Assembly (NCBI GenBank): GCA_964658305.1
Contig: OZ210885.1
Coordinates: 9,238,001 to 9,302,000 of the forward strand
DNA from: Leptogorgia sarmentosa
Taxonomy: Eukaryota
Direction of reading: 5' to 3'
Length of the DNA: 64,000 nt
The notes under the pieces are model-generated. The model did not search any database. It saw only the letters and a program-made list of their open reading frames with translations, and was not told where the DNA came from. Below, piece by piece: positions 16,821 to 49,872 of this stretch. Numbering within the stretch: position 1 is the first letter of the stretch; each line of letters starts with the position of its first letter. The translations under genes and the position numbers were made by a program.

Positions 16821-18667
16821 TATAACGAATGAATTCAGCCGCACCGATATAAAGACACATGGAACTTACATTAGCTTTCTTTGTATTCGCATACATAAAA
16901 TATTTAAATGCGTTAGGTAGTTCAAACTGAAACGTTTTTACTCTTATTTTTCTCATTTCATGTAAAAAATTGTTTAACAATTAAAAACTTAGAAATTTAT
17001 CCCACCTCGATGGTTTCGTTAACAAGATTGAGTATTCCTCTTTAAAATAAAACCGTACGTGTGTTCCTGCAATATTTTTTCTGTCCGGACTCAACTATTA
17101 TGAACGCAGATGTATTCTCTGTTTCAATAGGGAGATTTATAATCGACAACTTTTGTTATAAATTAAACTACATAACTGTTTTGACATGACAATTAAAGTG
17201 TCAAAAACCAAATTTATTAATTCCACACACACACACACATAAGCACGTACGGAATTTTGTTTTGCGAAATTCAAGAAATAGTAGCTAATAGCCTAATATA
17301 AAACTGCTAATGAACAGATAGCCTTTTTAAAATGTTCCCCTTCAAAACCCCGAGTAATTTTAGTAAATTACGAAATAATAAACAATGTTAAAAAATAACA
17401 CCTACCAATGTTCGATCGTATTGTTCTTTATTTATACATGAACAGTCTTTGCATGCTTTTAATCATACATATAATTTCGAATGCCGCGCGCTCCGCTAGT
17501 TAGTGTAGAATTAATTTGGTAAAAGATATATAGCACGGGCAGAATATAATTTTAAAATTTTAATTAATGCTCAATATTAGTATTAGCAGAAATATGAAAT
17601 GAAAAACATTTGCCTTGGGGACTGTTTTCATAGTAAAAAAGCCTGTAATAGTAAAAAAAATGGAAGCGCACAAAAGCAGTTGCGTGCCATTATTGAGGCA
17701 AATATTGAATGTGTAAATATAAACAAAGGCAAGTAATATGCAGAAATTAACATACGCTCACAATATTTCAATAAAGAAACATCTATCTGGTGTAATAATT
17801 TTCTTTCCCCGAACATATAGGCAAAATACGTACTGGGGCCGATGCTGCATATTTTGGCTTCAAATTTCCAGTTGTGAGTATACCCTTCCAGTTTTGTCTC
17901 ACTTTGGGATCACTTCGCGGCTTGGTTACCAAGCACTGATCCAATTCTGACTCTAAACAGAAAATATTGTCTTTTTTTTTTCTTTCTGTTTTTCTAATCC
18001 AGGCCCAATCAGTAATTCTGACCCTAACAGCAAAATGCTGAGAAAAAAAATCTTGAAAAAAAAACAAACAAAATGAGAAATAAACAAAATGACAAAAAGC
18101 CAAAAAGCCAACACGCGATAATCGGACCTCCGTCGTCCGGGCGTAAGTCAGGGGCGAGGCCGGGTAAACGGCAATTTACTCCCGAGCAAAGGACAAAACA
18201 AACTGTGGACAAGAAAGAGGGAACAGAATGATTTTTCAACGAGCAAATCAATTTTATCAATAATATATCATCATATATTTCTTAAAATACAATTTTTGTT
18301 CTTTCAGTTTACAATTTTTCGCAGAGGTTCACAACGCCCCGCTGCGAAAGCCGCATTATCCAATCGGATTGCTTCATTTTTACGAATAAAAATGATCATT
18401 ATCAGACACATCGCAACTTGTTTCAATTTGTTCAAACTGAACGGTTGTTAATAACGTCCGTAGGGACATGACGTTGATATGATAGTTAAGTTCAGACTGT
18501 TATATTAAAGATTCAACTACGATATATTGGAGCATTCCATGCAGCTAAAAATTTACTGTATGGAGAGACATACCAAAAATTTGAAAACAAATATATATAT
18601 ATATATATACTCTACTAAGGGCGCTTTCCATTACAGTCGCTTTGCCATCTCGTAAAAGTAAGTTGTA

Positions 18668-19880
18668 CTACTTCAGAAACTCTCTGCTGTCGGAGCCTCG
18701 CCTGCCGTGGTCCAGTGGTTCCGGAGTTACCTATCCGATCGGACACAGTTGGTACGCATTGACTCGGTGCTGTCAGATCCATTACCAATCACACACGGAG
18801 TCCCACAGGGAGCGATTCTTCCGCCGCTCCTTTTTTGTATTTACATAAACGACCTACCTGGCGCTCCCCAATTCAGTCAGCTCGAGTCATATGTTGACGA
18901 CTCCAAAGTTCTACTATCGTTTCCTGTAAATGACGTCAATAACGCCAAGACCAAGCTTGAAAAAGATCTACGAAATGTAGCCTTCTGGTGCTGTAAAAAC
19001 GACTTGTTGATAAACCCCGACAAAACGAAGTTCATGCTGATTGGGACCAGGCAAATGATGAGTAAACATTCAGTTGATTTTACTGTTTCTTTCATGGGAA
19101 AGTCTCTCACTACTGTCGAATCGGCAAAAGACCCGGGAGTCTATATTGATGCGCATTTGACTTATGACACCCATATCTCTCATCTGGTCTCCTCCTGTCT
19201 GTCAAAACTAGTGCAGATCAATCGTACCAAACATAGTTTTGATAGAGAGACCTTACTATTAATTATTACATCTCTGGTATTCAGCAAATTGCTTTATTGT
19301 TCAACAGTTTGGGCAAACACATACTAAAAACCTTCAAAAGCTTCAACTCATCCAAAACTTTGCCTGTAAAATCATCACAGGTGGCCGCAAATATGACCAT
19401 GTGACGCCCTTACTCAAAGAACTAAACTGGCTCCCAGTCAGTGAGACACTTAAGTTTAGAGATGCGATTATGGCCTACAAATGTTTTAATAACTTAGCAC
19501 CTGATTATCTATGCTTTAAGTTAAAAAAAACGATCTTGTATTCACAATCGTAAAACTCGCAATAATGATAACTTGCAAATTCCTCTGTTTAAATAAGCAA
19601 GTGGCCAGAGAACCTTCTCTTATAGAGCGGTCTCTCTGTGGAACAGGCTCGATGTAGATTTAAAAAACTCTGCATCCGTGAAAGCTTTTAAAAAGCTTTA
19701 CTTGCAAAGACTCTTACAAGAATGAATGACTGTAGTATACTTGCATATGTTTTAGTAAATGGTTTATTGATAGAATTTAGAAACCTTATTTTATTTATAT
19801 TCATATATTAGTTTGTAATTTTGTAAATAGTTACTGAAAAGCCTTTATACGAGTAATTATTAAAGTATTACTTACTTATT
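18668..19880 (+). mobile_element. 5'-truncated, decayed non-LTR retrotransposon (CR1/L2-group reverse transcriptase)
   Basis: WFRSYLSDRTQ, GVPQGAIL and YVDD RT motifs; frameshift near 19325 before KLQLIQNFACKII...LNWLPV; short 3' UTR ending in TTAC-type repeats. Confidence 0.9.
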
Positions 19881-28729: not shown

Positions 28730-31253
28730 TCAAGCATACTTGACCTTCAAAGTCATTGAGATTAGCTATTGCGCGCAAAGACGCGTTGAGACAGATATTT
28801 GCCAGATGTAATGTTTTAGCTTGCCACTCAAGTGATATGCATGTAGTGAGGATTTAACTTGAAAAATACGTTGATCAAGATCTGCGTATGAAATTTGTTT
28901 CACATTAAGTTAGGATGAGTAAACAAGAAAGTGGTTTCCATTTGACAAATAAAATTGTATGGCATTAGAAAATGTGAATAACTAATTAATACGACCTATC
29001 AAGATGGATTGCAATTTAGTGTGTTTACTCATGGGTTCACCACGCTTTCTTCTTCTCAATTAAATTCATAGAAGATCATTATTATGGAACAAAAATCTTT
29101 ACGCTTTTATGTTTCGTACTTTTCCACGGTAAAGACTGTACGTTATGACACGAAACGATATTTGCTGTATTAAAAATATTTCGATCGAAATGTAACATTC
29201 CTAGCTTGACTCGGCCAATGCGATTACTGCGGAATGCAGACTGCGTGTACTCGCGGATATTTTCCTATGCCTTTGCAATATAGAGTAGAATACAGACTCT
29301 TTAAAAATATCATACGAGAAATTCGAACTATTTTCTACAAGCGCAGCAGAGCCGATGGCCCAGAGTGGGCTGTAGCTTCCTCAATTTTTTGCTGGGTTAT
29401 AATATGCTAACAAGAATATAGGAAGACTGTATAATCCACGCTTACAAATCGAAGGGATTACCGATCAAGAATGCCACACAAAATTGCTTATGCTGAGCAG
29501 GTTTCGCGTTATATTTTGCACGATACTATCTATACTGATCCGCAGTGAATGTGCAGAAATTAAAAATCATATTCTGGTATATCAGATGAAGTTTAAGTTG
29601 TATGCTGTAGACAGGTGTAGTTAGGATAAAAATTTAGAGATTGTAATGAGGGTAGTATCGCATAGCTCTTGGCTACCAGACTGTGATTAATCTCCAATTT
29701 GATTTTGAACCTCCAAGATTATATTTTAGAGCAGAGGTCTTAGTGAAATGTGGGCAACTGTGATGTGCTTAGTGAAATAAAGGCAGCAAAAGTCATAACT
29801 CTACCTGGATTTCACAAACTCGATTAATGTGGAATGCAGACTGTATGTGCTTGCGATTAGTTTTTGAAATATAGTAAAAAACCCTGAAATAAACCTTGGA
29901 TAAATATGGGAGATTTTCAAATGCAATGTTAAAGGTGACAGTTTTACGTGATGTTATGCATTTACATGATTTTATAGCTGGGACACGACAAGACAGGGGT
30001 GCGTTCTAATTGCATATATTTATTGAAATCTAATACGTCTTGAATATTATAAATATAAGTTGCAACTAAAATCCTCACACAACGTGTAACCTCATGCCTA
30101 CGATACTTTGAGCATGTCGGCATTGGCATATTTGTACATGCTTGGACTGTCGGCAGTGTCATAGTGATCACGCAATATATGCAAATGTTTTGACGCCTCG
30201 TTATACAGAATTGTTGAAACATTCAACACCAGGAAATCAGGAGAATACCTTGTATTTTGTATTTTGTAATAAAACCAGTTTGTGCAATTTAGATGAGCGT
30301 GAAACAAAACAAAGGAAATCTTATATAGTCTAAAGTATCCTGTTTTGTATCTACGCGTATACGGATCATATATATTAGCGTCTTCTACGCCAATGTTGCG
30401 TGAATGAACAGAATATGGTGTATATAATATGGTTTTAAGTACATACAAAAGGTAATCTAGGTCCGTGGAAAGCCACATTTTTCACAAACAATCGCAAAGC
30501 GCTGTCGCTATTGTACAGACGCAATAACATAAAAATTAATGTGTTATCATATGTCGTCATGTTTCGAGTCTTATGCAATTTGATATGGTCGCGCGAATTC
30601 TAGAATGCGAGGTAGTCACGAAACTTATATCATGTACTGAAAAACTGTAACTAGGACAACCTCAAGTTTTATGAATCGGTATTTGCGCAATTTGCCTATT
30701 TCATAGCCATTATATAATTTTATAAGTAAGCTGGGCGCAGTACATGTTGCGTTGTGTACCTATTTTTTATTAGCTATGTCCAAAAATGTTTTGAAATGAA
30801 CCATTTAATTGCAAGGACAGCACTTAATAACATAGGGTCAGGCTACCTCGGGGTTCGTAAACTGTTCGGAACGTGCGGCGATCGTCCCCCGATCACCCTC
30901 GACATTACCTAATGCATTGAGTATTAAAATATTCAAATTAAATATTATTCCGAAGATAATTACCGAGGAACACCCGAGCGTCAAAGTAGCCTGACCCTAT
31001 GTTATTAAGTGCTCTCCTCAATGCAATTGATAATTATGGGAGGCGTATACTTGTGTAGTAGAAATAGATATCATGGTCAACAGTGAGGAATCTGCCATGT
31101 CATAGCCTAAAGATTAATTTCCGCTTTCGTTTTGAAACTCAAAGGAGATTATATTCGGGAACAGAAGTGTTTGCCTGCACAATATAATATTAATATAGTA
31201 CAATTGGTGATTCAAATGGCGTAAATTTGGAGTTTCATTTGACGGACAAGTAG

Positions 31254-31506
31254 CATAGGCAGCCCAGTGATCTGGGGTTTTATTATGTTAACTAAGGTTG
31301 AATAGGGCTATTTCATCATCCTTAGTGGTTTATATGCGTGCGCCGACAATACGGTCACTCGCGTATGTAATTAATATTATAACTATTTATTACATACGCG
31401 AGTGACCGTATTGTCGGCGCACGCATATAAACAACTAAGGATGATGAAATAGCCCTATTCAACCTTAGTTAACATAATAAAACCCCAGATCACTGGGCTG
31501 CCTATG
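31254..31506. mobile_element. 253-bp near-perfect foldback MITE, CATAGG...CCTATG ends, 7-bp TSD CAAGTAG (P-superfamily-like)
   Basis: TSD at 31247-31253 and 31507-31513; single-copy empty site at 8188-8194 in the left arm. Confidence 0.9.
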
Positions 31507-34233
31507 CAAGTAGGGCGAAAATCGATCCACTGGCACTGGGGACATTTTATGATTTAGCGACATTTTAAGCCTTACATAGATGTGTTACCGTCATTTTCTC
31601 TTTGTATACAATATGGTTATAAAATATGTTTGACTTTCACGTCTGATGGTAGTACGATAGAGAAATCGAAGTGACATATTGATAGAAACTAAAGGAAAAT
31701 TCAAGGAATTTTAAAACTATTTTCCAAGGCATTCTCATCGCAGGCTGAATTTTAATCTGCCGGAAATTGAAAGGGATTTCCCCTTTTCTCAAGCCATGTT
31801 CTGATTACACTCAGAGTTTTAATATTTTAGCCAGTCTGTGCTTTATTGTAGCAGTGAGTTTCATGTATTTCGTTCTCTGTCAATATAATCGCAATCATAC
31901 TACATTGACGAATAATTGAAAGTGGGACAGGGAATAACCAAGGAGGTGAGTTTGATTTAAATGTCTAGTAAACCAAAGAAATTCCCGTAGGATTTCCCGT
32001 CACAGAGCTGCGAAGATGCCGTGTGTTAGGAAAGCAATATACCCGTTGAAAGGAAAATACGTTAGACATGAACGACACAAATGACGGAACAAATATATTC
32101 AATCGTAATAAGTTTACAAATAGGTATAATTTGCTCGAAATAATGAACGAACTGCGAAGGACCAAAGCCGGAAGCTAAATCTTCATGCTGTACGTTTATA
32201 TTTTGCCATACATGATTGTATTGATCGCCATTTCAAGCGTATTTATATCCCTATCAGAATTTATTTGCTGAAAACTCCACCAAAACCTAAAAGTTTTCGC
32301 TCTGTTAACACGGAATTTTTCAATACTGATATTACTAATGCTAATAGAAATTCCTCATGACAGGATATGGCTTACTAAGCAAGATTTGCTTACAAATATT
32401 TATAGCTGCATTTCATATGACAAGGTTACAATCATGATTTAATATTAGTGAAATAATATCAGCAATTACGTTGGCTGATAGAAGTCTATCAAAATTCACC
32501 TTCTCATTAAACAGGGTGCTCATAACAATATATACTGTACACTTTGGTGAATTCAGTGGCTAATTTTGTCCCCTTCATTAATGATTTTTCCTACAGCTTC
32601 TCTAAGGCATTCCAACCCATTCCATACAAATTTCTTGGCAGTGACTAAGCCAAGCTGTGTTCAGACATACATTAATAAATGATATAGAAACTCTAACCCT
32701 ATCATCATTGACTTTATACTGTAGTACAGCATGCATCAAGTTGTATATTGCATCAGTAGTTTGTGACCTAGCTGGTGATTCCTAGCATGGCACATAAGTC
32801 CAGAGCATTCCCTGTTACACAGCGCCTTCACTTGCTCTAAAAATACCACCAAAACCTCTAGCTTTTGCTCTGCTAACCCACATTCTTTCAGTACAATTAT
32901 ATTATGCTTAATATAAATTTATTAAATAGTGAAGACAATTCCAATAAGGGATTGGATTAGATTTGACTACATCATTCTGGATTGAGTCAATTTTGATTTT
33001 GATTTCAATCTGGAAGGATTGAATTGCTGATTGAAAATAATGCATTGAATGTGAAATCCTAATTTTATTGCAGAAAGAATATGACTGGGCCTGAAACTGC
33101 AAAACAAATCATGCATGTTTTTTGCCCACATGTTTTCATTCCTTAAATTCCAGTTTGCATGTACATAAACTGTCAAACTAGACACGAGTTTCTTTCTGCC
33201 ACTTACTGGAAAAATCCCCCCTGCCTCTCGCACATTTTACTTTAATTTTCATTGTTAGATTTGTTAGCTTATGATATAAGTTTTATAAACTGTTTGAATC
33301 TATAAAACCTGACTGTCAGGAATTGTAACTGTGAGATTCCAGACCAGCATTCTGACCGACCGAGGTATAGAAGTCACTTGTTGAGTAATAACTTTAAGTT
33401 CATGTAGATTTATCTTGTATTTGTGCAGATGGTTGGTTGTTATTGCTTAGTTGTTATATAATACTGTCCAAACAAAATCAAACTGCCACAGATACTGCCA
33501 AAGAACATTGAGTGTTTTAATTATTTCCCATCCCTGGGGGGGGGGGGAGGGGGAGGGAGAAGAAGGGGAGGGGGCACTGATTTTTTAGTTTGGGTCATGT
33601 TACAATAAAGTAGACCACAACATTTTGTTGGTCTATGAAACATCAATGAAATTGTTGGTTTCTTGTCAAAATTAACACTGGCTCTGCCCCATTTTCTTAT
33701 CTCCTTATAGAAATGTGATTGGTTCAGCTGTTGACATCATTGAACAACAATACAGAGTGTGAAAAATTTGATTTTCAACCTGAATAAAAGGCTGCCAAAT
33801 TAGAACATTTAGTTTCCTGAGATTATAAAATAAATTAAGGTAAGTTAATTGTCCAGTAACAAACTTCAGAATGTGGTCAGTATTACCAGCGGATAACAGA
33901 ATCGACAAGCATGAGGTGCTCCTTGATCGAGAATCAGTGTTGATAGTTAAGGAAAAGTGCACATATTATTTTCATGAGGGTGAACATATTAACATCTTTG
34001 TTGTCAATGGTTTTCCAATATGGTTTTTATTTTAGTCACCTACATATATAGATTACTTAATGCAATTGTATATAACCCCATGTGTCTCTCATCTCCCACA
34101 ATATTTCCTGACAAAGGGCCCAGTTGTTCAAAATGTCAAACCTTATTGTGGCATCATTTAATATGTAGATAGGGGGGGGGGGGGGGTTGCTGGTTGTCGA
34201 TAAGTTATTACATCGCACTCAGACACCCAATTT

Positions 34234-34818
34234 TATGGAATTTGATGACTGTCATAGGTGCTGTATTTCTATTATATTCGGTGCTTTTAACATTATATTC
34301 GGTGCTTTTGACATTATATTCGGTGCTTTTAACATTATATTCGGTGCTTTTAACATTATATTCGGTGCTTTTAACATTATATTCGGTGCTTTTAACATTA
34401 TATTCGGTGCTTTTAACATTATATTCGGTGCTTTATACATTATATTCGGTGCTTTATACATTATATTCGGTGCTTTATACATTATATTCGGTGCTTTATA
34501 CATTATGTTGGGTGCATTCGACATTATATTCGGTGATAGTGTCTTTATATTCGGTGCTTTCTTCTTCATGTGCAAAAACTTTATCTTCAATTTCCTTATC
34601 TTGTACCCAGTCTTTCAATTTTGGCGCGGACAGTAAAATATGTGTTACTAACATGAAGTAATATGCACAGAAGCAATAGAAAATTGCGGGCATCTATAAA
34701 CAATAAATGGTGGGAAACTAAAGCATGCTTTATTGCTTTTATACTTTTATAAATGCAGATTTATGCATATTTTTATTTGATGCTGTAACTTGTAATATAA
34801 ATGGAAAACATTTTGGAA
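34234..34818 (+). repeat. Left TIR (585 bp) with about 14 copies of the 21-bp unit ATTATATTCGGTGCTTTTAAC, ending inside the integrase CDS
   Basis: Reverse complement of 39098-39610; ends with ATGGAAAACATTTTGGAA. Confidence 0.92.
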
Positions 34819-36150
34819 AAGCTTAATCTCGGTTGTGTTACTGAAAACTTTTTAAGGGAGAAAATCACTCCAGATATAGTTTGCCATCTTTCCTCGTTTG
34901 AATTCAATCAGTTGGGGATGAACCACGCCAGCGACGTTATGGCTTTGCGAATTGAGTGCACCAAATACGGGACTGGGAAGCCAACAAGCAGACGTGATGA
35001 ATTTGGTAATCTTAGATACGAAATCCCAAAGAGCGTGCTTCAAAGCTATCTTCAAGAAGATTTTAAAATTTCAGAGATCGCAACAATGTTTTCCGTATCA
35101 GAGAGTACAATATATCGTAGAATGAGATCATACGGGCTAAGTAAATTAGAGTTTTCTGATATTTCTGACGAACAGTTAGACACCCACGTGCGGGGTATTG
35201 CAAACGATTTTCCATTTTGTGGGGAGATAATGATTAATCATCTTCTCAAGGGGAAAGGTGTTAAGGTGCAACGGATGAGATTACGCGATTCTATTCATCG
35301 AGTAGACGAATGTGGAGTTACAGAGAGAAAGAAAGGTAGATTGCACCGAAGAGTTTATAACGTCAAAGGTCCGAACCAACTTTGGCATGTGGATACCAAC
35401 CATAAATTGGTGCGTTGGAATTTCATCATTGTTGGAGGTATTGATGGATTTAGTCGTCTGCCTGTCATGTTGCAGTGCACAAATAACAACAAGGCTGATA
35501 CTCTTCTGTCATGTTTTGTTGAAGCTGTTTCTGGCTATGGTCTACCAAGCAGAGTCAGAACAGATAAAGGCCTAGAAAATGTTGCTATAGCAGATTACAT
35601 GATAGAAAAGAGGGGAAGTAATCGTGGTAGCATAATTACAGGACGTAGCACGCACAACCAACGAATCGAAAGGCTGTGGCGGGATGTATTCCAAGGCGTA
35701 TTGAGCTATTATTACCATTTATTCTATTTCCTAGAAGACCAGAATTTTCTTGATCCAATTAATATAAAGCATATTGCTGCATTGCATTATGTATATATGG
35801 ATGAAATTAATACGAAGCTTAAATTATGGCAAAGAGCATGGAGCAATCACCGTATGCGTTCTGTAAGGTCCAGTCCACTGAGGTTGTGGATTGCAGGTCA
35901 AATCCAAAATCCTGTTGGAGTTCAACTTTCAACGGATGAATTACAGTTTTTTGGAGTAGAAGGGCTTGAAGACAATGACAGAGAGGAAGATGAATCAGAT
36001 GACCGACCAATTTTTTCACCACCAATTCTCCAACTCACTGATAACTGCATAGCAGAACTCAACTCTATTACAGACAGTCAAAGTGACTACAATGTTGGTA
36101 AATACATGGTGGCACTTGAAATAATAGAGCAACATACAACTGGAAATTAA
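34801..36150 (+). CDS. DDE transposase/integrase (rve/IS3-like core) with N-terminal SAM-like and HTH domains, 449 aa
   Basis: Candidate catalytic motifs WHVDTNHKL, RVRTDKGLEN and NQRIERLWRD; HTH ISEIATMFSVSESTIYRRM; uninterrupted ORF. Confidence 0.92.
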   Translation: MENILEKLNLGCVTENFLREKITPDIVCHLSSFEFNQLGMNHASDVMALRIECTKYGTGKPTSRRDEFGNLRYEIPKSVLQSYLQEDFKISEIATMFSVSESTIYRRMRSYGLSKLEFSDISDEQLDTHVRGIANDFPFCGEIMINHLLKGKGVKVQRMRLRDSIHRVDECGVTERKKGRLHRRVYNVKGPNQLWHVDTNHKLVRWNFIIVGGIDGFSRLPVMLQCTNNNKADTLLSCFVEAVSGYGLPSRVRTDKGLENVAIADYMIEKRGSNRGSIITGRSTHNQRIERLWRDVFQGVLSYYYHLFYFLEDQNFLDPINIKHIAALHYVYMDEINTKLKLWQRAWSNHRMRSVRSSPLRLWIAGQIQNPVGVQLSTDELQFFGVEGLEDNDREEDESDDRPIFSPPILQLTDNCIAELNSITDSQSDYNVGKYMVALEIIEQHTTGN

Positions 36151-36481
36151 CTAATTTATGCTAATTTGAAAATGGATACAGATAGCATCACTGTGGTTTA
36201 CCTTAAAACTGGAACATAACTGGAATGCAAAAAATAGTGTGATAATGTTTTAACAAAAATGTGACCAAATGTTCTTGAATGTTCTGGAATTTTATCTTTA
36301 CAGCAGCTTTAATTGCCTAATTAAGGATGACATTAGTAACATAACCCCATTAGTAACATAACGAATTTGAATTGTGATAGTGAGTTACATTTAAGTGTTT
36401 TGATTTGCATTTACAGAATAGTTTTCTCACTTCATTGTTTACAAGAATCTACAATTGCTTTAATTAATGAAAAAGAAGAAA

Positions 36482-39115
36482 TCATGGATTTCCAAAATAT
36501 GCATTTAGGAATGCTTCATCAAACATTTCGAAGAGTTTTTCATCACATGGTAGTGGAATAGTTATGGATCCATGAGGCAGGGTCAAGACATTTATGCATG
36601 TATTTGCTGTAGGCAGAAATGATTTACTATATTCTTGGAATTGAATCGATGGTGAGATTCCAAACCCCAGTAGTGGCTCTTCATCTGTCGACGTTGCAAA
36701 CTGTAGAATGTGACCTAGTGTCACATCTCCTCGACGTCCACCTAGAATGTACAGTGTAGGTACTATATAGTATGTTCAATTATTTGTAATTATTCCTATA
36801 CATACAGATTCTGTTATTTCTGTACATTTAAATTATACATACCAGCAACGTCTTTAACATATTTGCAGAATCGAGAATAAACAGCACCCTCAAAACGTCT
36901 TCTGTTAGACCCATCTGGACTAAACTGCGGTGCTAACAGGGTATGTAGCTTACGTATTGTTAATACGGAAGGTGGAGTGTACTTGAAAACATCTTGCATT
37001 GATGGCATCTTTATACAAATCTAAAAGAAAGTTTAGTGGAGAGTTGTTTAGTAAACAGCTGTTCCACATTAATTAGATGAGTATCTCTTCAATTCCTTAG
37101 TAGATCTCAGATTCAGTGGCAAAAAAACAATACTCATTTTTATAAAGGAGTTGTACAGTGAACCTGGAATATCCCAACTTTCCTAAGACCTTGTCTTAGA
37201 TTTTCAATACAAGGTGATACGCTCATATTCGTATCAAAAATTGTAGAAACAACATCAGCTTCAATAAACTGTGGAAGCTTTCCATTTTGTAAAATGCTGA
37301 GGCCTACAAAAATGAAATCAAAGAATAAAATAATTAAAATTCGAAATTTTGTTATGAAAACAATTGCATTTAGTGACTGACACCACGTTCATCAATTTTG
37401 ATGCATTTTGCTTTGAAGAATAAAATCACATGTGAAAAAACATATTTGTCAAAATTGTTGTATACAAATGTTAAACAGGTTGAATGATACTGAAAGCATA
37501 CCTAATATAGTTCCAACAATTGTATATTCATCACTTAGAAGCTCCCTGAGACCTCTGTCAAAATACTTTTCCTTAATGTCCATTAGAATCAGTCGGAAAA
37601 ATTCCCTTCTAGGTCCACCATAATCCTCAGCTTGCTATAAATATAAGAATTTTTAACATTAGAAAATAGAAATTATATATTATAAATGTTAAACTTACTA
37701 ATCCAAAACGTCACATATTGAATGCTTTAAAAAGACAAAAAATCCTTTTTTAACTACTTTACCTCTCCATAAAATTGGATTTCTAATGTAAGCAAGGGAT
37801 TCTCTAATGCTCCAATTTCATCCAATGCAGTTTCTAACAAGTTGTTGCGATCCACATGTATATAATTTGTCTCCCCTTGTGGGCACTCATCTTCCCTTTC
37901 TATATCCAGCCTTCTCCCTTTCAGTATTTTCGACTGTAATGCACGAAGGATTTCTTTGTTGCTGTCTATATTGGTATTCTTGCACTGCTCTGAAACGTTT
38001 CTAACCATGTTATCAAGTTTATCCATATCCATTGGACCGTGCACGTAATCATCTTCTATTACAATAGGGCTGTTGATTACATCATTTATATCAGGATTTT
38101 CATCGCTGTCTATTGATTGTTGAACAATGTTGATTGATTGTTGTTCAGCACTACTGGTTTGCTCAAATATTTCCAATGAAGTAGTGGTTAGGTCACTATC
38201 ATTGTCAATGTCCACATGACCTGCACTGCTAACAGACTGAATTTGTCTTTGCTGCCTGAAATCAGATTCATCAGATGAATCTGAAGATAAAATGCCTGCT
38301 GTACAGGTGTAGAGATGACTACGCAATTCATTCAAAATAAACTCTTGGTTGCAGCCTTTCTTGCAGTTCTCTTTGACCTGCACATTGATATCAGGCTTAA
38401 TTGGAGTAGTTGAAAGATTTTTCTGAATTGGTCTAACATATATTTTACACTGACTGCCAACAGTTGCTTTGAGGCTACTAACAGACCATGGACAATCAAT
38501 GATGTGTAACTCTCTGCAGTTAGGCAAGCATCGCAACAACTCAAGCCCACCTGACTGACGAAGTTGAGGGAAGCCAATTGGTTCGCCGTGATCAGCCTTT
38601 TCCTCTGACATAATTCTATTAACAACTTCTTGAGCATTGTCACTCGCATCAAATTTGATTTTTTTCAATCCCAATCCGGCATTGCACAGTATTTCTTTTT
38701 CTATCGAATTTGGAATCTTTGTTTGCAGGCGATCAGCCAAACAAATCATTTGAACGGTCCATGTTCGCCCGCGACTTACCTTCCTTTTCCGTGAAGTTGC
38801 AGACGAATGGCGAGGATTGAAAAGCCTGGACCTCTCTGATGCAATCGAGGATAGGGATGGGCCAGCAGACGAATTTCCAGACAACTCTGTGTCCTCTGAA
38901 TTCAAGGTACATTGACCCGCAGTACATTGAGTAGACGCAGAATCAGCAGAAGCCCTACACCTCTGTCGAAGACGAATGCGATCTCCCATGGTGGATACTC
39001 CAAGACGTGTGAGTTCTCCATCAGACATTGCAATGACAATTTCTGGCTCAATACGTTCTTCAGCAAACCGATGTTTAAGTGTTCCAAGGCCGAGTACTTC
39101 CAAAATGTTTTCCAT
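36482..39115 (-). CDS. HECT E3 ubiquitin ligase (G2E3-like C-terminus) with N-terminal SAM and a C2HC zinc finger, about 687 aa; exons 39115-37763, 37634-37502, 37303-37164, 37020-36843, 36741-36482
   Basis: All four introns are GT-AG and phase-consistent. HECT motifs LEIQFYGE|QAEDYGGPRREFF and catalytic LPTANTC, ending AFLNAYFGNP. SAM-like LGVSTMGDRIRLR; finger CKKGC...HLYTC. Confidence 0.9.
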
Positions 39116-39610
39116 TTATATTACAAGTTACAGCATCAAATAAAATTACGCATAAATCATTCTGCATTTATAAAAGTATAAAAGCAATAAAGCATGCTTT
39201 AGGCCTTTAGTTTCCCGCCATTTATTGTTTATAGATGCCCGCAATTTTCTATTGCTTCTGTGCATATTACTTCATGTTAGTAACACATATTGTACTGTCC
39301 GCGCCAAAATTGGAAGACTGGGTACAAGATAAGGAAATTGAAGATAAAGTTTTTGCACATGAAGAAGAAAGCACCGAATATAAAGACACTATCAACGAAT
39401 ATAATGCCGAATGCACCCAACATAATGTATAAAGCACCGAATATAATGTCGAATGCACCCAACATAATGTATAAAGCACCGAATATAATGTATAAAGCAC
39501 CGAATATAATGTTAAAAGCACCGAATATAATGTTAAAAGCACCGAATATAATGTTAAAAGCACCGAATATAATAGAAATACAGCACCTATGACAGTCATG
39601 GCATTCCATA
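39098..39610 (-). repeat. Right TIR (513 bp) with about 10 copies of the 21-bp unit, ending inside the HECT gene CDS
   Basis: Reverse complement of the left TIR; the length difference is explained by four repeat units plus small indels. Confidence 0.92.
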
Positions 39611-39685: not shown

Positions 39686-40650
39686 TTTTGGTATCTGCGA
39701 ACGCAGATACTATGCTATGATCTTTCAGCTGTTAGCTGTTAGCTGTTAGCTGTTAGCTGTTAGCTGTTAGCTTCTAGCCAATCAGCGACGAGCTTTTGCT
39801 TATAATTACGTAATGCAAGATGGCGGCGTTCGAGGAGTGAAGGCGATGTTCGATCGGATTTTTGCGAAAATGTGAAGTGCAGTGTTTAAGTACGACGCTT
39901 TAAGCAAACAATCTTGACTTTGCAGGTCCCTGTCAATGTGCAGTTGTAATTTAACAAAGGATTTGAAACGGCAGCGTGCTGTTTTATCGGCCTTTCGATT
40001 TGTAAATTGAAAATGCGTACAGAGCACACTGTCCAGATGGCCGACCCATGAACGGTTTTGTCACAGCACGCTATATAAAAACTGGATACATTCTGTTGAA
40101 GTAGCCTGTTCGCAGGTTAAATCTAATCATATTCAAGATGGCGGTCAAAATTGAAATAAGGCCAAAACGATATAATTAAATAATTTAATGACATTTACAT
40201 GTAATATTAGGTAATCCCACGATATTCAGTGTAAAGCCATAGTTTTATACATATTGGAGGCACAAAGAAATTTTTTTCCCAAGGAATTTCCTCGTATTTT
40301 CCACGAAAGAGTCGAAGGAGGAAGGTGAGAAATGCTGTATATGAGAACAGTCAACACTAACTAAACATCGCATATTTAATAAGACAGCATGCTGATTTAG
40401 GAAATCAGTTTGAGTATAGTTCTAGGTTTTAATGTTTTGTGCGTTGGGCTGTTAGCTTTGGGGTTCGATTAGTTTCATATTTAGGGTTAGCTTTAGTTTA
40501 TGTTCATTTATTGCTTGCAAACCAATACTTTAGCGGTAGATTTAAGCGCAACCTGGACTTTTTAGCATGTCCCATTGCGCTTTCCGACGACTCATCCGTC
40601 AGTTCTGCTTCACCATTCGCAGATACATGTGCGCTTTGCGAACCTATTTT
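39686..40650 (+). mobile_element. DINE-1/HINE-like non-autonomous Helentron
   Basis: Starts in a T-run with subTIR GTATCTGCGAA and an adjacent inverted GCAGATAC, then a (GCTGTTA)n microsatellite at about 39728-39771; 3' subTIR TTCGCAGATAC, a short hairpin and a T-run. Confidence 0.7.
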
Positions 40651-42727: not shown

Positions 42728-43381
42728 TTAAGTTTGTTACGTAACGACAAGATGGCGGCCGTGGAGGAGCGGAGGCGATGTTGCAATGTTTTTGCTAATA
42801 AAATGTGAAGTGTAGTGTTGAAATGCGAACGTTGGGGCAAACAATTTTGTCTTTCTAAGTCCTAGTAAATACACAATTGCAATTCTACAAAGTGTTTATA
42901 AGGCAGCGTGTTATTTCATCGAAGTAGAAGTTGCGATTCTGTAAACTTGATCTCGTAGTATTGCGGTTGTACTGCGCAATATAAATCTCAGCGTGTTATT
43001 TCGTCGAATTAGAAGTTGCGATTCTGTAAATTTATTCTCGCAGTATTGCGGTTGCATTGTGCAATATAAATCCCAGCAAATATCATATGCAATAACATGC
43101 AGTTTGAAAACGGCAGCATGTTATGTTAGAATGTTTGTACCGATAGAATATAAAGTGTAGTCTTCAAATACGAAAGTTTAGGCAATCAATTTTCACATAC
43201 TACATCTCAGTAAGTGCGCAATTGCAATTTAACACGATATAGACAGAATATGTTGTATATAAGTGGTTTTATACAAAGGGTAAACTTGGTCACTAGAAAG
43301 CCACATATTTCGCAAAGCAATCACAAGAAGCGACAACATAACCCCCCCACACACACACACCTAATGTGCGCCCCTGAATAT

Positions 43382-43648: not shown

Positions 43649-44293
43649 AAATGTAGATAGAAAATAGCAAAGAAAGGGGCTTATCAAATACCAGCATTTG
43701 CATTTCATTAATATTATGATTCTATTAATTATCAAATATATCATTTTAGATACTGATAAGTATAAATGCCTATTTCATTATCCCTACTTGACATTGCCAA
43801 ATTGCACGCGTGTTTGGCGAAATACCGTGAGTGCGAAGCACGAGAACAAGTGTAATTTCCTTTTAATATCATTGTAGTCAATTTCAGTGCAATTTCAATA
43901 TCAAACAAATGAAAATCCATCGTAAAATTATACGAGAAACAAAAATTTTACTGTAGTTTTACTTGTTTTTAAATTTACCGCTCGCATATCGCGGGCTCGA
44001 AGTGTGGTATTTGAAAAATTATTTACACACCTGTGTAATTAATGTTTAATTCTCACAGTTGTTGAAGCTTTTTTATGTGTATGGCAAACTTACCTATAAT
44101 CTAAATACCTTTCACTAATCAAATCTCGTACAACTTAATTGCATTGCGAAATTTTGTCGGAAATCGTCCAGTGTAACACCAGCTTTATCTCGATATCTTC
44201 GTAGAAACTTTGCACTATCCTTGGACCCCTTACTTACTGTTTTTAATGCTTCTTTTCCCATGGAAAATTCCATATTTAGCGTTGATCTCAAAG

Positions 44294-45767
44294 ATGAATC
44301 CAGTAAAAGCAGAAGCTAATGTTATAAGGATTTCTCGTCTGTTGGTAGACAAAGGAGGCGAAGCATTAAGAGCTGCTCTTCATGTTAAACATCCACCTGC
44401 AACTTTATCCACCGTATTGAATACAAATAAACCAGCCTTGAAGAAGATAAGATACAGTGTAATTAAAGCCTCGCAGTGGAACTTACTCTTTCCTGCTTCG
44501 GGGACACCAGATTCAAAACATTTTGATGTAACATTATTGACAATTCTTCTACGAAATATTTGTGGATTGCCTCCACCAGCGACTGGGTGGGATGTTATGC
44601 CTCCAACTAGCGATACTTCGATATCCGCGAATATTACGAGAATCAAAATCTTTAGAAACGACGTGTACGGTCATACAGCAAGTGCTCAGTTAGACGACAC
44701 TACATTTGAAACATTGTGGCAAGAAATTTCAAATTCTTTGGTGAAGCTAGGAATTCCTCAACAAGACATTGATGAACTGAAAGAAGCTCCTCTCAGTCCT
44801 GAAGAAGAAAGTTATGTTGAAAAATTGAAGGAATGGAAAGAACTGGAGAATGAAATCTTGTCAGAACTGGATGATATTGAAAGTGGTGAGAAAAAGCTTC
44901 GAAGTGAAATTCCTGCGTTACGAAAAGCCAATCAAATGACGAATTTCTCGCAAATCAACCGACTATCCAAGTTTAACTTTACTGGAAAGATCAAAGATCT
45001 AAGTGGAATGTTTCACGAAGGTACAAGAGTATGGCTTCTTGATGAGATCTCAAGATGGATGGATAAAGAATATCCAAAGGTTATGATTGTGACTGCAGGG
45101 CCTGGCATTGGGAAAAGTGTTTTGTCAGCAAGGATTTGTGAACTGTACAAAGAACTTGGTCAACTCGCCGCATGCCATTTCTGCGATTTTAGAAAGTCAG
45201 ATTTCAGAAATCCTCACATAATTCTACAGTCTCTTGCGAGTCAAATGTGCGAGAATGTTGAAGGATTTCGTGATAAACTGTCAGAAGTTCTTTGCTTTGA
45301 CCATTCTCGGGACTTGCAATCAAACGCTTTCCGTGTCCTTTTGAACGAACCACTTTTTAAACTGGACAGACACGATAAACCAATGTTGATCGTTGTTGAT
45401 GCTTTGGACGAGAGCAAGACTGATGACAAAAGTGAGTTTTTAGAGTTGATATCAGAACAGTTTTCGCAATTACCAGCATGGATTAAGATATTTATAACCA
45501 GTAGACCAGGGTTCAAAGTACGGAAGAAACTTTCACACATGAATCCTTTTGAAATCCTCCCTGATGACAAATGGCACAATTTCAAAGTCGTCTTTCCACA
45601 AGATATTGATGAATTGAAGAAACATCCTCTCAGCCCAAAAGAAGAAACATTTATTAGAAAGTTAAAAGAATGCAAACAAATTGAAGATCTTACCGCAAAC
45701 GTTGAAGAAACTGACAAATTATTAAGCGACATTGAGCAGTCAAAACTGTCTACAACTGGAGACAAAG
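44294..45767 (+). CDS. Exon 1: DZIP3-like HEPN domain plus truncated NACHT-like (NPHP3-N type) P-loop NTPase
   Basis: HEPN hallmarks FDVTLLTILLRNIC and RNDVYGH; Walker A GPGIGKS; Walker B LIVVDALDE; FITSRP; donor AAAG|GTATTT (phase 1). Confidence 0.85.
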
Positions 45768-45987
45768 GTATTTTTTTTTCACGTGTTCGAACTCATTATT
45801 TACTGTATCTTTAAATAAATTTAAGGCCAATGTTGGTTGCGCATAATTACATCCAAATGCAGTAAAAGTTCCGCTCATCACCTAAATGATGTGACGATGA
45901 AAAGATTCTTCGCTAGGGATCGGTGTAAGAATCCCAACAAATATGATTATTTTGCAAATAACTGCCTTTTTTATTAGTACAGGTAAT

Positions 45988-46135: not shown

Positions 46136-46932
46136 CTTATTACCTGGTAATATTACCTATTAGCGAAATTTCAAAGCGAAATTTCACCGCCAGAGTTTTC
46201 TTGCTTAGTTTATTTCACATTTTACAGCGTTTACGGTTTTAAAATTCACCCAAACACGTAACTTTTGTTAGTCTTGTTTGAGATAAAGTTTTTTCCGTCA
46301 TAAGAAAAAGATAAAAGCTATATTTTCGACCCGCAGACAATTTTCACTTTGTTTAGCGCGGCCGCCATGTTTGTTTTGTTTTGAAGAAATCTGTAGCTTG
46401 AGCTCTAATTTGATTGGTTCAAAGTGGTAACAGAAAGTTGCACTGTGATTTGGGATTAACTGCACTGAATCGACCAATCACAGTCGAGTAATACTTTATA
46501 TGCAAAATATAAAAACGTTCGATACAAAATAAATATAAAACTATGCTATCCAAAATCTCAAAATTATTGTAATAGACAATAAGCCACAATTAGGCCAAGC
46601 GCAGATGGAAAACTTGGAGAAAAATTTACCAGCATCCTTCTCGGAAGGCTGATACTGAGCAAAATTAATTTTGGAGTATCAGGACTGCGTCGTCATAAAA
46701 CGTTGCTAAAAAAAATACTCTCGATTCTTCATATAATTCAATTGCTCGACCATACTTGATTTATTGCTCTGACAACCCAGCGGATTTAGGCACAAAAAAT
46801 TGGCGACATTGATTCGTAATCGAATACGCAACTGGATCTATTTTTTCTACATAATCGATTTTTAGAAAAACCTCTTCGCACGAATTTGAGCTAATTATTC
46901 AAGATTAACTATTCTATATTTATATTTTCTAG

Positions 46933-49195
46933 ATTTCCATAATTTAACTTCAGAATTCTCTCTCGTACATCCACACAAGAAAATTTGCCTTACAAATGAA
47001 CCGACAAACCTTGTGCAAATGTTTAAATTCCTTGGCGGTCTTACAAATAAAGTGGTTGAGCATTATTATACAAACCACTTAATTTCTTTCAATATCGAAT
47101 CTCCAAACGTAGCCGAGGAAAAATTCACTAAAGAATTACTAAATTCTATTTTTGACATCAAAGCTGTGTTCGCACAAACATTACATTCGCTAGATTTATT
47201 TCAGAGCTATCTTGAACGTCCAAGCGAGGAAACTGCTGGACCGTTGAAACTGTTACTTGATCGCAGAAAATATTCATGTACAAAACTTCTCTCACCAGGC
47301 GAAATTGACAGTTTCTTAGAGGCTTCGCGTTCACTTCTAATGACACATTCGCTCAACGGTAAAGAAAATAAAGAATCTCAGGATTTTGAAAATCAAAACT
47401 TGGATCTTGATTTGAATGCGCAACCAAACCGTAATTCTCCTCCTCTATCACCAAATTACAAGAGCAAGAAGAAAAAGGAAAACAAGAATTGGCGTGGAAA
47501 CATTGACCACGACGACGTTGCTCAAACTTATGATCACAATCCTGGAAGTACTTTACAGAAACCTGAAGATGATTTGGTACAAGGCTCCTTAAAAACAAAG
47601 ACGAAAACCAAAGTGCAAGATTTTGCATGTTTAGAAGAAGATTCTAATCGTCAACAATGTAAAAAAGGAAAGAAGCCCGAAAGAAAGATATTCAACGATA
47701 TCAATGTTCCGCAGATGGGAAAAGAATGTCAGGGAAAATGGATTCCTGGGCATATTGGAGATTCTCGTCCCGACAAAAAGATGAAGTATGAAAAGATGTC
47801 GCAAGAAAACGCGTTGAAAGGAAGGAATTCGCTCTATTTCTCGCAGCCATCAACTCGGATGATTTCCGCAAGAGTAACAGAACTGGAGGATGAAAACCTG
47901 TCTCTTAGAAAGCAACTGGCAGCATTGCAGTCCATAAACAAAGAGATCTTGTCAGAGCTTGGCGAAGTAACAGTTGAGAAGACGGCTAAAGAAAACGAAG
48001 AAAGAAAATCGGAGCACTTCCGTCACATATTTCAATCTCCCTCACAGGAAGATAAAAGATCGGCCATGCCCAACTCTCGAAAGCCCAGATCGAATGAGTT
48101 GGGCAACAACGGCGATCAAGGATACCTTGTTGCAAATGGTTCGTCAAGACCTCCGATCAGTTGTAATAAGGAGGCAGTACTAAATTCATCATCTGTCGAT
48201 GAAGCAGCTTCCTCTCGTGGTCACCTCGTCAATGGAGCCGAGGCCTTGGTGCCAGATAACAACCATGAACCAGGCGGGGTAGCGAATGTCCGAAATGACG
48301 AAAATGAAAGGACGTTCCAGGCAAGAAATCAGGAAAGCAATACTGTTAACGGCTTCGAGCAAACCGCAACGGTCCAAAATACAGCAAGTATCCAATCTAC
48401 AGAGAACTCCAGTGGCGGAGAGGGAAGTAGTCCATCAGGAAATGTCGAGGGAGCCCGCGATCAGGCGTCCGCATCCCAGCGTGGTTTGTCATTTTCGGTC
48501 CAGCAAGATGATTCTGGAAGAGAGTCCATATCATTGAGGAACATTCCACCCACATCAGTTGCAACAACCTTGTATAACAATTACAAGCTCCTTTTGCTAT
48601 CCCTTGCACAAAACCTTCTCTCCTCGGACGTCATGCTATTACAAGACTGGACGGCTCAGAATTTCTCAATCAATAACCCACGGAATGCCATGCACTGATA
48701 TTCTCTTTCAACTTGATGAAAAAGGAGTCATCAACGCTTCAGATTTACATCAACTCTCTGATTTCTTTGAATCCATTGTCAGATTTGATCTTGTGCATAT
48801 TATAGACGCATTTCTCCTTGGTGACTATGATCTACTTCGTCAAAGTCAAGCATCTAAAAAGCACGCTGCAAATCTGGTACAAAACCATGGACGTAGAGCC
48901 ATTACGAGGAATCCAGGTTTTCTAAATGCCATGAACAGCGGTCAATTTTCGATGAACACGAGCAGAAATCTGTCCAGAGCACCTGTAAACAGTGGAGTAC
49001 ATAATTCCCTGCCTTCGACTCAACCGCAATCTTCGAGAAGCTTCTCAGATACATCCAATTCAACACGCAGTTCTGTTAGGTCTCTGAGAAACCAATCCTC
49101 GGCATCTGAGCAGCAAAACCCCGGTAAACCAGCTGGTGGATTTAATTCAGTTAGAATGGCCGAGGTAACAGTTAATGCGGATGGTCCAGTTACAA
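46933..49195 (+). pseudogene. Exon 2: low-complexity/coiled-coil region plus death effector domain (DED), with a +1 (probably 4-bp) frameshift near 48690
   Basis: The phase-1 acceptor at 46932 is in frame with ORF 47013-48698. The DED N-half (YKLLLLSLAQNL) and C-half (DILFQLDEKGVI...IVRFDLV, RxDL motif) are in different frames. Donor ACAA|GTAAGT. Confidence 0.75.
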
Positions 49196-49872
49196 GTAAG
49201 TGTACCTGTAGTTTCTCATATTTTGATAGATTTTAAAACTTAGTTTCTCTAAAAACAATTTGATGAGTCTTGGCGACTTCGAGTTGTAACCAAAATTAAC
49301 CATATATGCATTATTTTTATTAACCATATATGCATATATGTACTGTTGTTTGTCTTATTAAGTTTTACCCCGCCTATCGAATCGCGTTGTTCTTTAACTG
49401 ATAGGTAATCCCTTCCAAAATCGTAACACTTATATACTTGAATTTACCAAACAAATACCTGTCACATTCTTGTGTTAAAATCCCAACCAAAATCCTCAAC
49501 CTGATCCCAATCCTGATCCTAATCTCATTCTAAAAATCTAAAAATAATATCAGCCCCTAGGCCCCCTATAAATCGTGATTCATGTGTACCAAACACTTTG
49601 TAAGGTCCACAAGCGTTATTTGATTTCTTTATCTGAATTGCCTTGATTAAACAAAGATATTGCGTGAAACAAAAATATTAAATACTATCAAGTTGCTATA
49701 TTGAAAGGGTATTAGCTACTTTCATTTTCACATGATTAATGACTCGAACTGTGTCGAAAGAAAGTCCACAATACTGGAATCTAGCTCTGTCCATTTTGCG
49801 TTGTTTTTTAATATTTCCATGAACTGCTACGTTCTGTTTATTGCTTCTCTAACTCCTTCTTTAAAAATATAG

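What the first reader, a model, noticed from the sequence alone, without database searches (positions are those of the whole stretch)
34234..39610. DNA transposon pairing a SAM-integrase with its own intron-containing SAM-HECT ubiquitin ligase
Seen in sequence: long TIRs enclose exactly two convergent intact genes, a DDE integrase and a five-exon HECT ligase with the catalytic Cys motif PTANTC. Both proteins begin with a SAM-like domain (MENILEKLNLG...F..E.I.P.IV...LGM and MENILEVLGLG...F..E.I.P.IV...LGVSTMGDRIRLR). Established: SAM domains mediate homo- and hetero-oligomerisation, HECT domains are ubiquitin ligases, and TAY...RTA ends with a two-gene layout are described for IS3EU. Inference: the ligase is a dedicated partner that docks on the transposase via SAM-SAM contacts, either to control its turnover or to ubiquitinate chromatin or host silencing factors. 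I cannot tell from the sequence whether this pairing is already catalogued.
Basis: partly seen in the sequence, partly recalled or inferred. Interest (0 to 1): 0.9.

Follow-up and report, generated by a model that had tools for sequence, protein, structure and literature searches.

The report
Transposon carrying a stripped-down ubiquitin ligase
This is an intact jumping gene of a known kind (IS3EU) that, like its relatives in many animals, carries a second gene for a ubiquitin-ligase-type protein, here lacking the usual docking site for its partner enzyme and starting with the same kind of binding module as the transposase, which likely lets it latch onto and control the transposase.

Summary
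Observation confirmed. 34234-39610 is an IS3EU/GingerRoot DNA transposon (TATGG..CCATA, 585/513-bp TIRs) with an intact DD34E transposase and a convergent five-exon, 687-aa SAM-Ubl-ZnF-HECT gene. Both N-termini fold as SAM. The HECT gene belongs to the element: it lies inside 9 of 10 related elements with both ends found, 7 of 9 with perfect 6-bp TSDs, and is conserved like the transposase. This scan noted the IS3EU-HECT pairing before on other DNA (sea urchin, sponge-like, fungal windows); I found it in no paper, but could not see Repbase. Three additions. (1) The pairing does not need SAM: all ten complete relatives lack it in both genes; SAM transposases form one branch. (2) The TIRs here run through both start codons and six codons, which inflates the likeness; the two SAMs are otherwise separately conserved classes, and only the ligase SAM keeps the End-Helix glycine. 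(3) The HECT keeps its catalytic Cys but lacks about 70 residues where the E2-binding subdomain lies. Best reading (0.45, inferred): the ligase docks on its own transposase and tags it for removal. This copy has no TSD; its flanks come from different sites.

The parts
34234..34818 (+). Left TIR (TATGG end), running through the transposase ATG and first six codons
34271..34560 (+). Subterminal tandem array, 21-bp unit, 13.8 copies (likely transposase binding sites; inferred)
34801..36150 (+). Transposase, 449 aa: SAM (1-55), two HTH-type helical domains (about 72-180), integrase-type core (185-370) with D198, D255, E290
34801..34965 (+). Transposase SAM domain; End-Helix glycine not conserved in this class
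37763..39115 (-). HECT gene exon 1 (451 codons): SAM 1-55, ubiquitin-like domain about 118-235, C2HC zinc finger about 246-272, acidic linker, start of HECT N-lobe
38951..39115 (-). Ligase SAM domain with invariant End-Helix G-D-R motif
37502..37634 (-). HECT gene exon 2 (DYGGPRREFF motif)
37164..37303 (-). HECT gene exon 3; spans the place where about 70 residues of the E2-binding small subdomain are missing
36843..37020 (-). HECT gene exon 4 (start of C-lobe)
36482..36741 (-). HECT gene exon 5 with catalytic Cys650 (codon 36598-36596) and stop
   Evidence: (Pfam HECT E 3.5e-8)
39098..39610 (-). Right TIR (CCATA end), running through the HECT gene ATG and first six codons; holds 8.5 copies of the 21-bp unit at 39396-39573
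33000..34233 (.). Left flank: a host repeat into which the element inserted; a second, uninterrupted copy lies at 4833-6163 (-) and continues with sequence unlike the element's right flank

Best explanation
This is an intact IS3EU/GingerRoot cut-and-paste transposon whose second gene, a shortened HECT-type ubiquitin ligase, is a standing part of the element and likely docks on the element's own transposase through a one-way SAM-SAM contact to tag it for removal. Shown: the two intact genes, their TIR-enclosed convergent layout, SAM folds on both proteins, the co-travel of the two genes across families, the kept catalytic Cys and the missing N-lobe segment. Inferred: (a) promoters in the two near-identical TIRs would fire both genes together; (b) the ligase SAM, with an intact basic End-Helix and acidic Mid-Loop, would self-assemble, and the transposase SAM, lacking the End-Helix glycine, would act as a Mid-Loop-only cap that anchors the ligase on the transpososome; (c) with the E2-binding subdomain gone, ubiquitin would have to reach Cys650 by another route, probably an E2 or host E3 recruited by the ubiquitin-like domain or zinc finger; (d) ubiquitylation would strip the transposase off the strand-transfer product for gap repair and keep its level low. 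The transposase SAM probably arose by copying the 5' end of the ligase gene across the TIR, replacing an older helical N-terminal domain.
For: Selection: HECT exon 5 dN 0.40-0.45 with synonymous sites saturated against 5 loci, like the transposase (0.34-0.46); domains 62-96% vs linkers 28-67% identical in five near relatives; Cys motif in 113 of 120. SAM fold on both: tankyrase SAM Z 9.0, rmsd 2.5, 59 aligned (transposase) and Z 9.2, rmsd 2.2, 59 aligned (relative P0264). SAM found in 109 of 120 transposase hits and 55 of 69 ligase hits. End-Helix Gly in 100% of ligase SAMs, replaced by S/A/R in transposase SAMs; a Mid-Loop-only SAM capping a SAM polymer is known for Mae/Yan (PMC9499636, passages). 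TIR covers both ATGs. A ligase-type SAM half-exon lies upstream of HECT exons in a lineage whose transposase gave no SAM hit (L055, L056, L060), which fits SAM being on the ligase first.
Against: The pairing works without SAM: no SAM hit in either gene of the 10 complete relatives. Presumed partner SAMs are no more alike than non-partners (ranks 17-34 of 51 for five pairs), so there is no sequence sign of pair-specific matching. The transposase SAM's Mid-Loop is only weakly acidic (mean -1.5 vs -3.9 for the ligase SAM), so the ligase SAM may prefer itself or host SAMs. The missing E2-binding subdomain leaves ligase activity itself in doubt. Eight of the ten complete relatives come from one assembly, and contig-length matches give no positions. 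The tree has no outgroup, so the order of SAM gain is not fixed.
Confidence: 0.45

Rival explanations
1. The ligase is aimed at host proteins: its SAM binds host SAM proteins or polymers (for example chromatin silencers or antiviral factors) and ubiquitylates them to lift silencing, while the transposase SAM leads the transposase to the same chromatin or helps it oligomerise.
For: The ligase SAM is the canonical one and its closest solved relatives are host polymer-forming SAMs (Bicc1, ANKS6, tankyrase); fungal IS3EU carry TET/JBP genes proposed to counter silencing (PMC12730594, abstract and passages); the gene persists in SAM-less elements.
Against: Does not by itself explain why a homologous SAM sits on the transposase in the same clade and is conserved at 47-67%; no host target is indicated by any result.
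Confidence: 0.28
2. The transposase SAM is a by-product of TIR extension that copied the ligase gene's 5' end; it was kept as a folding or self-association module, and the two proteins interact through other surfaces or not at all.
For: The TIR demonstrably reaches into both coding starts in this family; SAM-less transposases have another helical domain in the same place; no pair-specific SAM likeness.
Against: The transposase SAM has its own strongly conserved surface motifs (K-I-T-P-D 76-95%, L-R, E-C), which suggests a specific binding partner; in 7 of 7 SAM-less elements measured the TIR stops 53-162 bp before the transposase ATG, and sister SAM families do not share starts, so copying into coding DNA is not routine.
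Confidence: 0.15
3. The protein is not a working ligase in the usual sense: lacking the E2 site, it uses its Cys as a ubiquitin acceptor, relay or decoy that depends on a host E3, or acts as a ubiquitin-binding scaffold that shields the transposase.
For: DxGG-to-Cys distance 196 here and at most 205 in 96 of 111 relatives, against about 289 in AREL1; 110 vs 180 residues between two anchors shared with E6AP; only short helices in that part of the model; the small subdomain hosts the E2-binding site (PMC3077247, passages).
Against: Catalytic Cys motif kept in 113 of 120; both lobes otherwise intact (Z 19.5, rmsd 3.4, 263 aligned to Rsp5); adaptor-anchored E2 is known for Smurf2 (PDB title 1zvd).
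Confidence: 0.1
4. The HECT gene is a one-off captured host gene riding neutrally in this copy.
For: One of ten complete relatives (L053) and 13 of 33 loci with long downstream flanks show no convergent HECT.
Against: Same position and orientation across many transposase branches, multi-copy co-location, purifying selection.
Confidence: 0.02

Closest known systems
IS3EU/GingerRoot superfamily (Repbase IS3EU; PMC10045372 passages and supplement part 12; PMC6839031 passages and section 21; PMC12730594 passages), nearest entries IS3EU-1_SK, IS3EU-3_CGi, IS3EU-6_CGi
   Same: TA..TA (TAYGG..CCRTA) ends, integrase-type DDE core without HHCC, 6-bp TSD in relatives; the core is 80 of 107 residues identical to IS3EU-1_SK1p (counted by eye) and shares the DTNHKL motif with the two oyster entries.
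   Different: None of the passages read mentions a HECT gene or SAM domain (0 occurrences of HECT in PMC10045372, PMC12730594, PMC6839031, PMC11934779 main texts); TIRs here are 513-585 bp against 100-150 bp for clubmoss GingerRoot; fungal IS3EU are described with TET/JBP and alpha-kinase genes instead. Repbase entries themselves, which may annotate the second protein, could not be seen.
Canonical HECT E3 ligases (E6AP, NEDD4/Rsp5, AREL1, UBR5)
   Same: Two-lobed HECT fold, DxGG..EFF motif, catalytic Cys in P-x-A-x-T-C.
   Different: About 70 residues of the N-lobe small (E2-binding) subdomain and about 18 more residues upstream are absent; N-terminal SAM, ubiquitin-like and C2HC finger domains; transposon-borne.
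Maize MuDR (mudrA/mudrB) two-gene layout (recalled, from no call)
   Same: Two convergent genes transcribed inward from promoters in long, near-identical TIRs.
   Different: Unrelated transposase; MURB is not a ubiquitin ligase; no shared SAM.
Mae/Yan SAM capping system (PMC9499636, passages)
   Same: A SAM lacking a functional End-Helix uses only its Mid-Loop to bind a polymer-forming SAM: the pattern inferred for the transposase and ligase SAMs.
   Different: Host transcription factors; analogy only.

Membership tests
IS3EU/GingerRoot | IS3EU-type DDE transposase | tested here: met
   Pfam rva_4 E 1.9e-75; D198/D255 in 70 of 70 and E290 in 69 of 70 aligned; 80 of 107 identical to Repbase IS3EU-1_SK1p core by eye
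IS3EU/GingerRoot | TA..TA (TAYGG..CCRTA) termini with TIRs | tested here: met
   TATGG..CCATA; definition
IS3EU/GingerRoot | TSD, usually 6 bp | tested here: inconclusive
   No TSD at this copy, but left and right flanks come from different sites, so none can be read; 7 of 9 assessable relatives have a perfect 6-bp TSD
IS3EU/GingerRoot | No HHCC zinc-binding domain upstream of the core | tested here: met
   N-terminus is SAM plus HTH-type helices; feature
Canonical HECT E3 ligase | Bilobal HECT fold | tested here: met
   Model of relative P0264: UBR5 Z 21.4, rmsd 3.4, 273 aligned; Rsp5 Z 19.5, rmsd 3.4, 263 aligned; Foldseek E 7.8e-11 to Smurf2
Canonical HECT E3 ligase | Catalytic Cys in the C-lobe | tested here: met
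   Cys650 in PTANTC; motif in 113 of 120 relatives
Canonical HECT E3 ligase | N-lobe small subdomain that hosts the E2-binding site | tested here: not met
   110 vs 180 residues between anchors shared with E6AP; no beta hairpin in model residues 478-535; SAM-less relative L042 has about 80 residues where this protein has about 7. Filed as a HECT-derived variant, not a canonical member
Canonical HECT E3 ligase | Ubiquitin thioester formation and transfer | not testable with these tools
   needs a bench assay
SAM domain | Five-helix SAM fold at both N-termini | tested here: met
   Five helices, pLDDT 79-97; best SAM matches Z 9.0 and 9.2 among many SAM entries
SAM domain | Pfam SAM score above the curated cut-off | tested here: inconclusive
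   Window ligase SAM_1 17.8 bits (cut-off 23); window transposase no hit; relatives pass: P0159 26.3, P0127 25.6, transposase P0099 SAM_2 27
Head-to-tail polymer-forming SAM | End-Helix Gly at the base of helix 5 with basic surround (ligase SAM) | tested here: met
   G 100%, D 96%, R 100%; mean charge +2.4; feature
Head-to-tail polymer-forming SAM | End-Helix Gly (transposase SAM) | tested here: not met
   S 36%, A 15%, R 11% at that column

The most novel reading that the evidence does not exclude
IS3EU transposons run their own ubiquitin module, and this clade has evolved a minimal HECT enzyme that has shed the E2-binding subdomain yet stays active through a new ubiquitin-delivery route (its ubiquitin-like domain and zinc finger recruiting an E2 or a host E3), polymerises through SAM and is anchored by a capping SAM that the transposase gained by TIR-mediated copying: a transposon-encoded machine for dismantling its own transpososome.
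Probability: 0.2. Interest if true: 0.85.

Novelty: new variant of a known kind. Interest (0 to 1): 0.62.

Why it matters
How eukaryotic transpososomes are taken apart after integration, and why many DNA transposons carry ubiquitin-system enzymes, are open questions; a compact 5.4-kb two-gene element with both genes intact makes them testable with one Cys mutant and one SAM mutant. A conserved HECT family that keeps its catalytic Cys but lacks the E2-binding subdomain would be of interest to ubiquitin enzymologists whether or not it acts on the transposase. It also means that many 'uncharacterised HECT' genes in coral, mollusc and hemichordate annotations are probably transposon cargo, not host gene-family expansions.

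Tried and rejected
No whole genome is held, so copy number in this genome could not be counted. Complex prediction of the two SAM domains gave no answer (scores 0.28 and 0.25, mark 0.34; alignments were not used); it is no evidence either way. No RNA holder was listed, so expression and splicing were not checked against RNA of this organism. Viral contigs: 68 pattern matches, none a relative. Hits in prokaryote genome bins (13 loci) were treated as host contamination (L082 has spliced exons), not as bacterial elements. Alternative inner ends at TGACTGTCA or TAGG were considered; none gives a TSD, and relatives and loose ends at 39610 support TATGG..CCATA. Concerted evolution of partner SAMs was tested and not found outside the TIR-covered six codons. 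Exact dN/dS could not be computed because synonymous sites are saturated. The 'bits' column is invalid (a query file had been overwritten); it was recomputed and is not used. Pfam and PDB sequence searches with single internal exons of SAM-less relatives found nothing useful. The careful tree did not finish; the quick tree was used. The deep profile search of cluster representatives never ran. Paper searches that found no description of IS3EU with HECT or SAM; one of two hits was 'trophectoderm' and the other was not opened. Kojima 2019 (Genes Genet Syst) is not held, and Repbase/Dfam entries cannot be searched here.
Full report
Observation. The element runs from TATGG at 34234 to CCATA at 39610; the end pattern occurs only at these two places in the window. 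Inverted homology spans 585 bp on the left and 513 bp on the right and contains 13.8 and 8.5 copies of a 21-bp unit. The + strand holds a 449-aa ORF (34801-36150) scoring 253 bits on Pfam rva_4, with D198 and D255 in 70 of 70 and E290 in 69 of 70 aligned relatives; its model matches retroviral integrases and IS21/Tn7-type transposases. The - strand holds five exons joined by four GT-AG introns into 687 codons without a stop; the product aligns to full-length relative P0264 at 47% with no gap at any junction. One run covers the interior with two contigs and no differences.

Ends and flanks. There is no TSD (CAATTT left, TTTTTC right). The left flank is a host repeat with a second copy at 4833-6163 (-) that carries on with sequence unlike the element's right flank, and contigs of two runs show the same uninterrupted form. 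The flanks thus come from different sites, by an adjacent deletion or recombination between two copies (inference). Four contigs of one run leave the sequence at 39610 with differing tails, which fits other insertions ending there. The TIRs are identical through both ATGs and 18 coding bases (MENILE). In the 7 SAM-less complete relatives measured, TIR homology stops 53-162 bp before the transposase ATG, and sister SAM families have different starts on the two proteins, so the shared first six residues are peculiar to this family.

Family. Complete IS3EU families have TA..TA ends and usually 6-bp TSDs and form one lineage with GingerRoot (PMC10045372, passages); fungal ones end TAYGG..CCRTA (PMC12730594, passages). 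In the supplement of PMC10045372 (part 12 of 18) the core of IS3EU-1_SK1p is 80 of 107 residues identical to this transposase by my count, and two oyster entries share the DTNHKL motif. The element is an IS3EU of a clade already in Repbase.

Is the HECT gene part of the element? Of 93 loci fetched with a transposase alignment, 33 have at least 3 kb downstream of the core; 15 of 33 show a convergent HECT hit at my 12-bit threshold, five more of one family (L051, L054, L055, L056, L060) show HECT exons below it, seen in translation for three and by near-identity for two, one (L066) has HECT-like pieces upstream, and 12 show none; some of these are visibly interrupted or frameshifted. Ten loci have both TAYGG..CCRTA ends; 9 of 10 hold the HECT gene inside, the exception being a 4.2-kb element (L053); 7 of 9 with both flanks have a perfect 6-bp TSD. 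Eight of the ten come from one assembly but fall on several branches of the tree. For SAM-bearing families, where no second complete locus was available, contig lengths serve as a proxy: all 6 distinct lengths in one SAM-HECT cluster recur among 12 in a SAM-transposase cluster, and three lengths in the nearest sister transposase cluster match HECT hits; a 5388-bp contig holds near-identical copies of both window proteins. Near-identical HECT copies lie on four chromosomes of a mussel (6 members). HECT exon 5 has dN 0.40-0.45 against five loci with synonymous sites saturated, like the transposase, and domains are better conserved than linkers. The gene is a selected, standing passenger.

SAM domains. 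Both N-termini fold as five-helix bundles whose best matches are SAM domains (Z 9.0 and 9.2 to tankyrase SAM); Pfam scores for the window's own proteins are below cut-off but relatives pass. With profiles built from subsets of the same hits, 109 of 120 transposase hits and 55 of 69 ligase hits carry SAM; the transposase misses are all short, N-terminally truncated calls. SAM transposases lie on one side of a branch with 99% SH-aLRT support (35 rows: 30 SAM, 2 contigs that begin inside the gene, 3 unlabelled; quick tree of 103 rows using 83 of 93 loci, midpoint root). All ten complete relatives lack SAM in both genes; their transposases start with another helical domain. So the partnership does not depend on SAM. 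The two SAMs are separate classes (mean scores 143 and 148 within, 76 between), and five presumed partner pairs rank only 17-34 of 51; the window's pair ranks 3 of 51, helped by the TIR-covered residues. The ligase class keeps G-D-R at the base of helix 5 (G 100%), the transposase class does not. SAM-SAM binding usually joins an acidic Mid-Loop to a basic End-Helix with such a glycine, and Mae, lacking a functional End-Helix, caps Yan polymers (PMC9499636, passages). This suggests a polymer-forming ligase SAM and a capping transposase SAM; against it, the transposase Mid-Loop is only weakly acidic (-1.5 vs -3.9). A ligase-type SAM half-exon upstream of HECT exons in a lineage without a detected transposase SAM (L055, L056, L060) hints that SAM was on the ligase first; the link of that exon to the gene is inferred, and a split transposase SAM exon could have been missed.

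The ligase. The model of P0264 shows SAM (1-62), a ubiquitin-like fold (114-237; Z 7.4, rmsd 2.6, 79 aligned to the TBK1 ULD, a middling score), a C2HC finger and a HECT domain (Z 21.4 to UBR5). The catalytic motif is present in 113 of 120 relatives. But the domain is short: 196 residues from DxGG to Cys here, at most 205 in 96 of 111 relatives and none over 260, against about 289 in AREL1 (counted). Between two anchors shared with E6AP the family has 110 residues and E6AP 180; the model has only short helices there; SAM-less relative L042 has about 80 residues where this protein has about 7. The small N-lobe subdomain, with helices and a beta hairpin, hosts the E2-binding site (PMC3077247, passages). 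I infer that it has been deleted. The short form also occurs in HECT relatives without SAM, so the deletion is not tied to SAM. The ESM Atlas lists such domains as HECT clusters of molluscs, chordates and one basidiomycete set.

Mechanism. Most likely (0.45) the ligase acts on its own transposase, docked by SAM, to clear it from the integration product and limit its level; Kapitonov's 2012 talk already proposed that conserved host-derived proteins in DNA transposons regulate transposition (PMC3520738, passage). Rivals: a host-directed anti-silencing ligase (0.28), a transposase SAM that is a by-product of TIR copying (0.15), a non-canonical decoy or relay (0.10), neutral capture (0.02). The steps from SAM to binding, substrate and outcome are all inference.

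Novelty. Searches for IS3EU with HECT or ubiquitin, for HECT with transposon terms, and for SAM with transposase found no description; PMC11934779 (passages) says IS3EU structure and function are largely unexplored; PMC4455052, PMC6431247, PMC3627910 and bioRxiv 2021.09.26.461848 (passages) and the one GingerRoot supplement file held do not mention HECT. Repbase records and Kojima 2019 were not visible and may. This scan has noted IS3EU with HECT in at least four other windows. What this window adds is SAM on both proteins with asymmetric surfaces, TIRs that include both gene starts, and the loss of the E2-binding subdomain. Verdict: new variant of a known kind, interest 0.62.

Noticed in passing
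window 44177-45814 (+): 545-codon open frame with HEPN_DZIP3 (E 4e-51) and NPHP3_N/NACHT domains, an NLR-like immune gene.
   Followed up: partly
window 58754-60808 (+): 684-codon open frame of a hAT transposase with dimerisation domain, apparently intact.
   Followed up: partly
window 31253-31507: Near-perfect palindrome, 124-bp arms 98% complementary with a 7-nt loop; MITE-like.
   Followed up: no
window 46890-49236 (+): Two long overlapping open frames (602 and 232 codons); the first has no Pfam hit at E 0.01.
   Followed up: partly
window 18662-19327 (+): Reverse transcriptase fragment of a non-LTR element.
   Followed up: partly
window 39700-40200 and 42737-43234: Very high-copy repeat right of the element with a 7-bp tandem (AGCTGTT) and related copies at 42.7-43.2 kb.
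   Followed up: no
proteins P0268-P0347: Many short-HECT relatives called as single 600-690-aa open frames, without SAM but with a different N-terminus; probably intronless ligase genes of other transposon families whose transposases were not identified.
   Followed up: partly
L074:7284-13897: The IS3EU element sits inside a second element with TGTGACAGTC ends; L034 shows similar TGTGAC ends around an IS3EU copy.
   Followed up: no
L082, L081, L083-L093: Animal-type IS3EU sequences, one complete with spliced HECT exons, inside bacterial and archaeal genome bins: host contamination of those bins.
   Followed up: partly
L066:1-9100: HECT-like pieces on both strands upstream of an IS3EU transposase, a different layout.
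   Followed up: no
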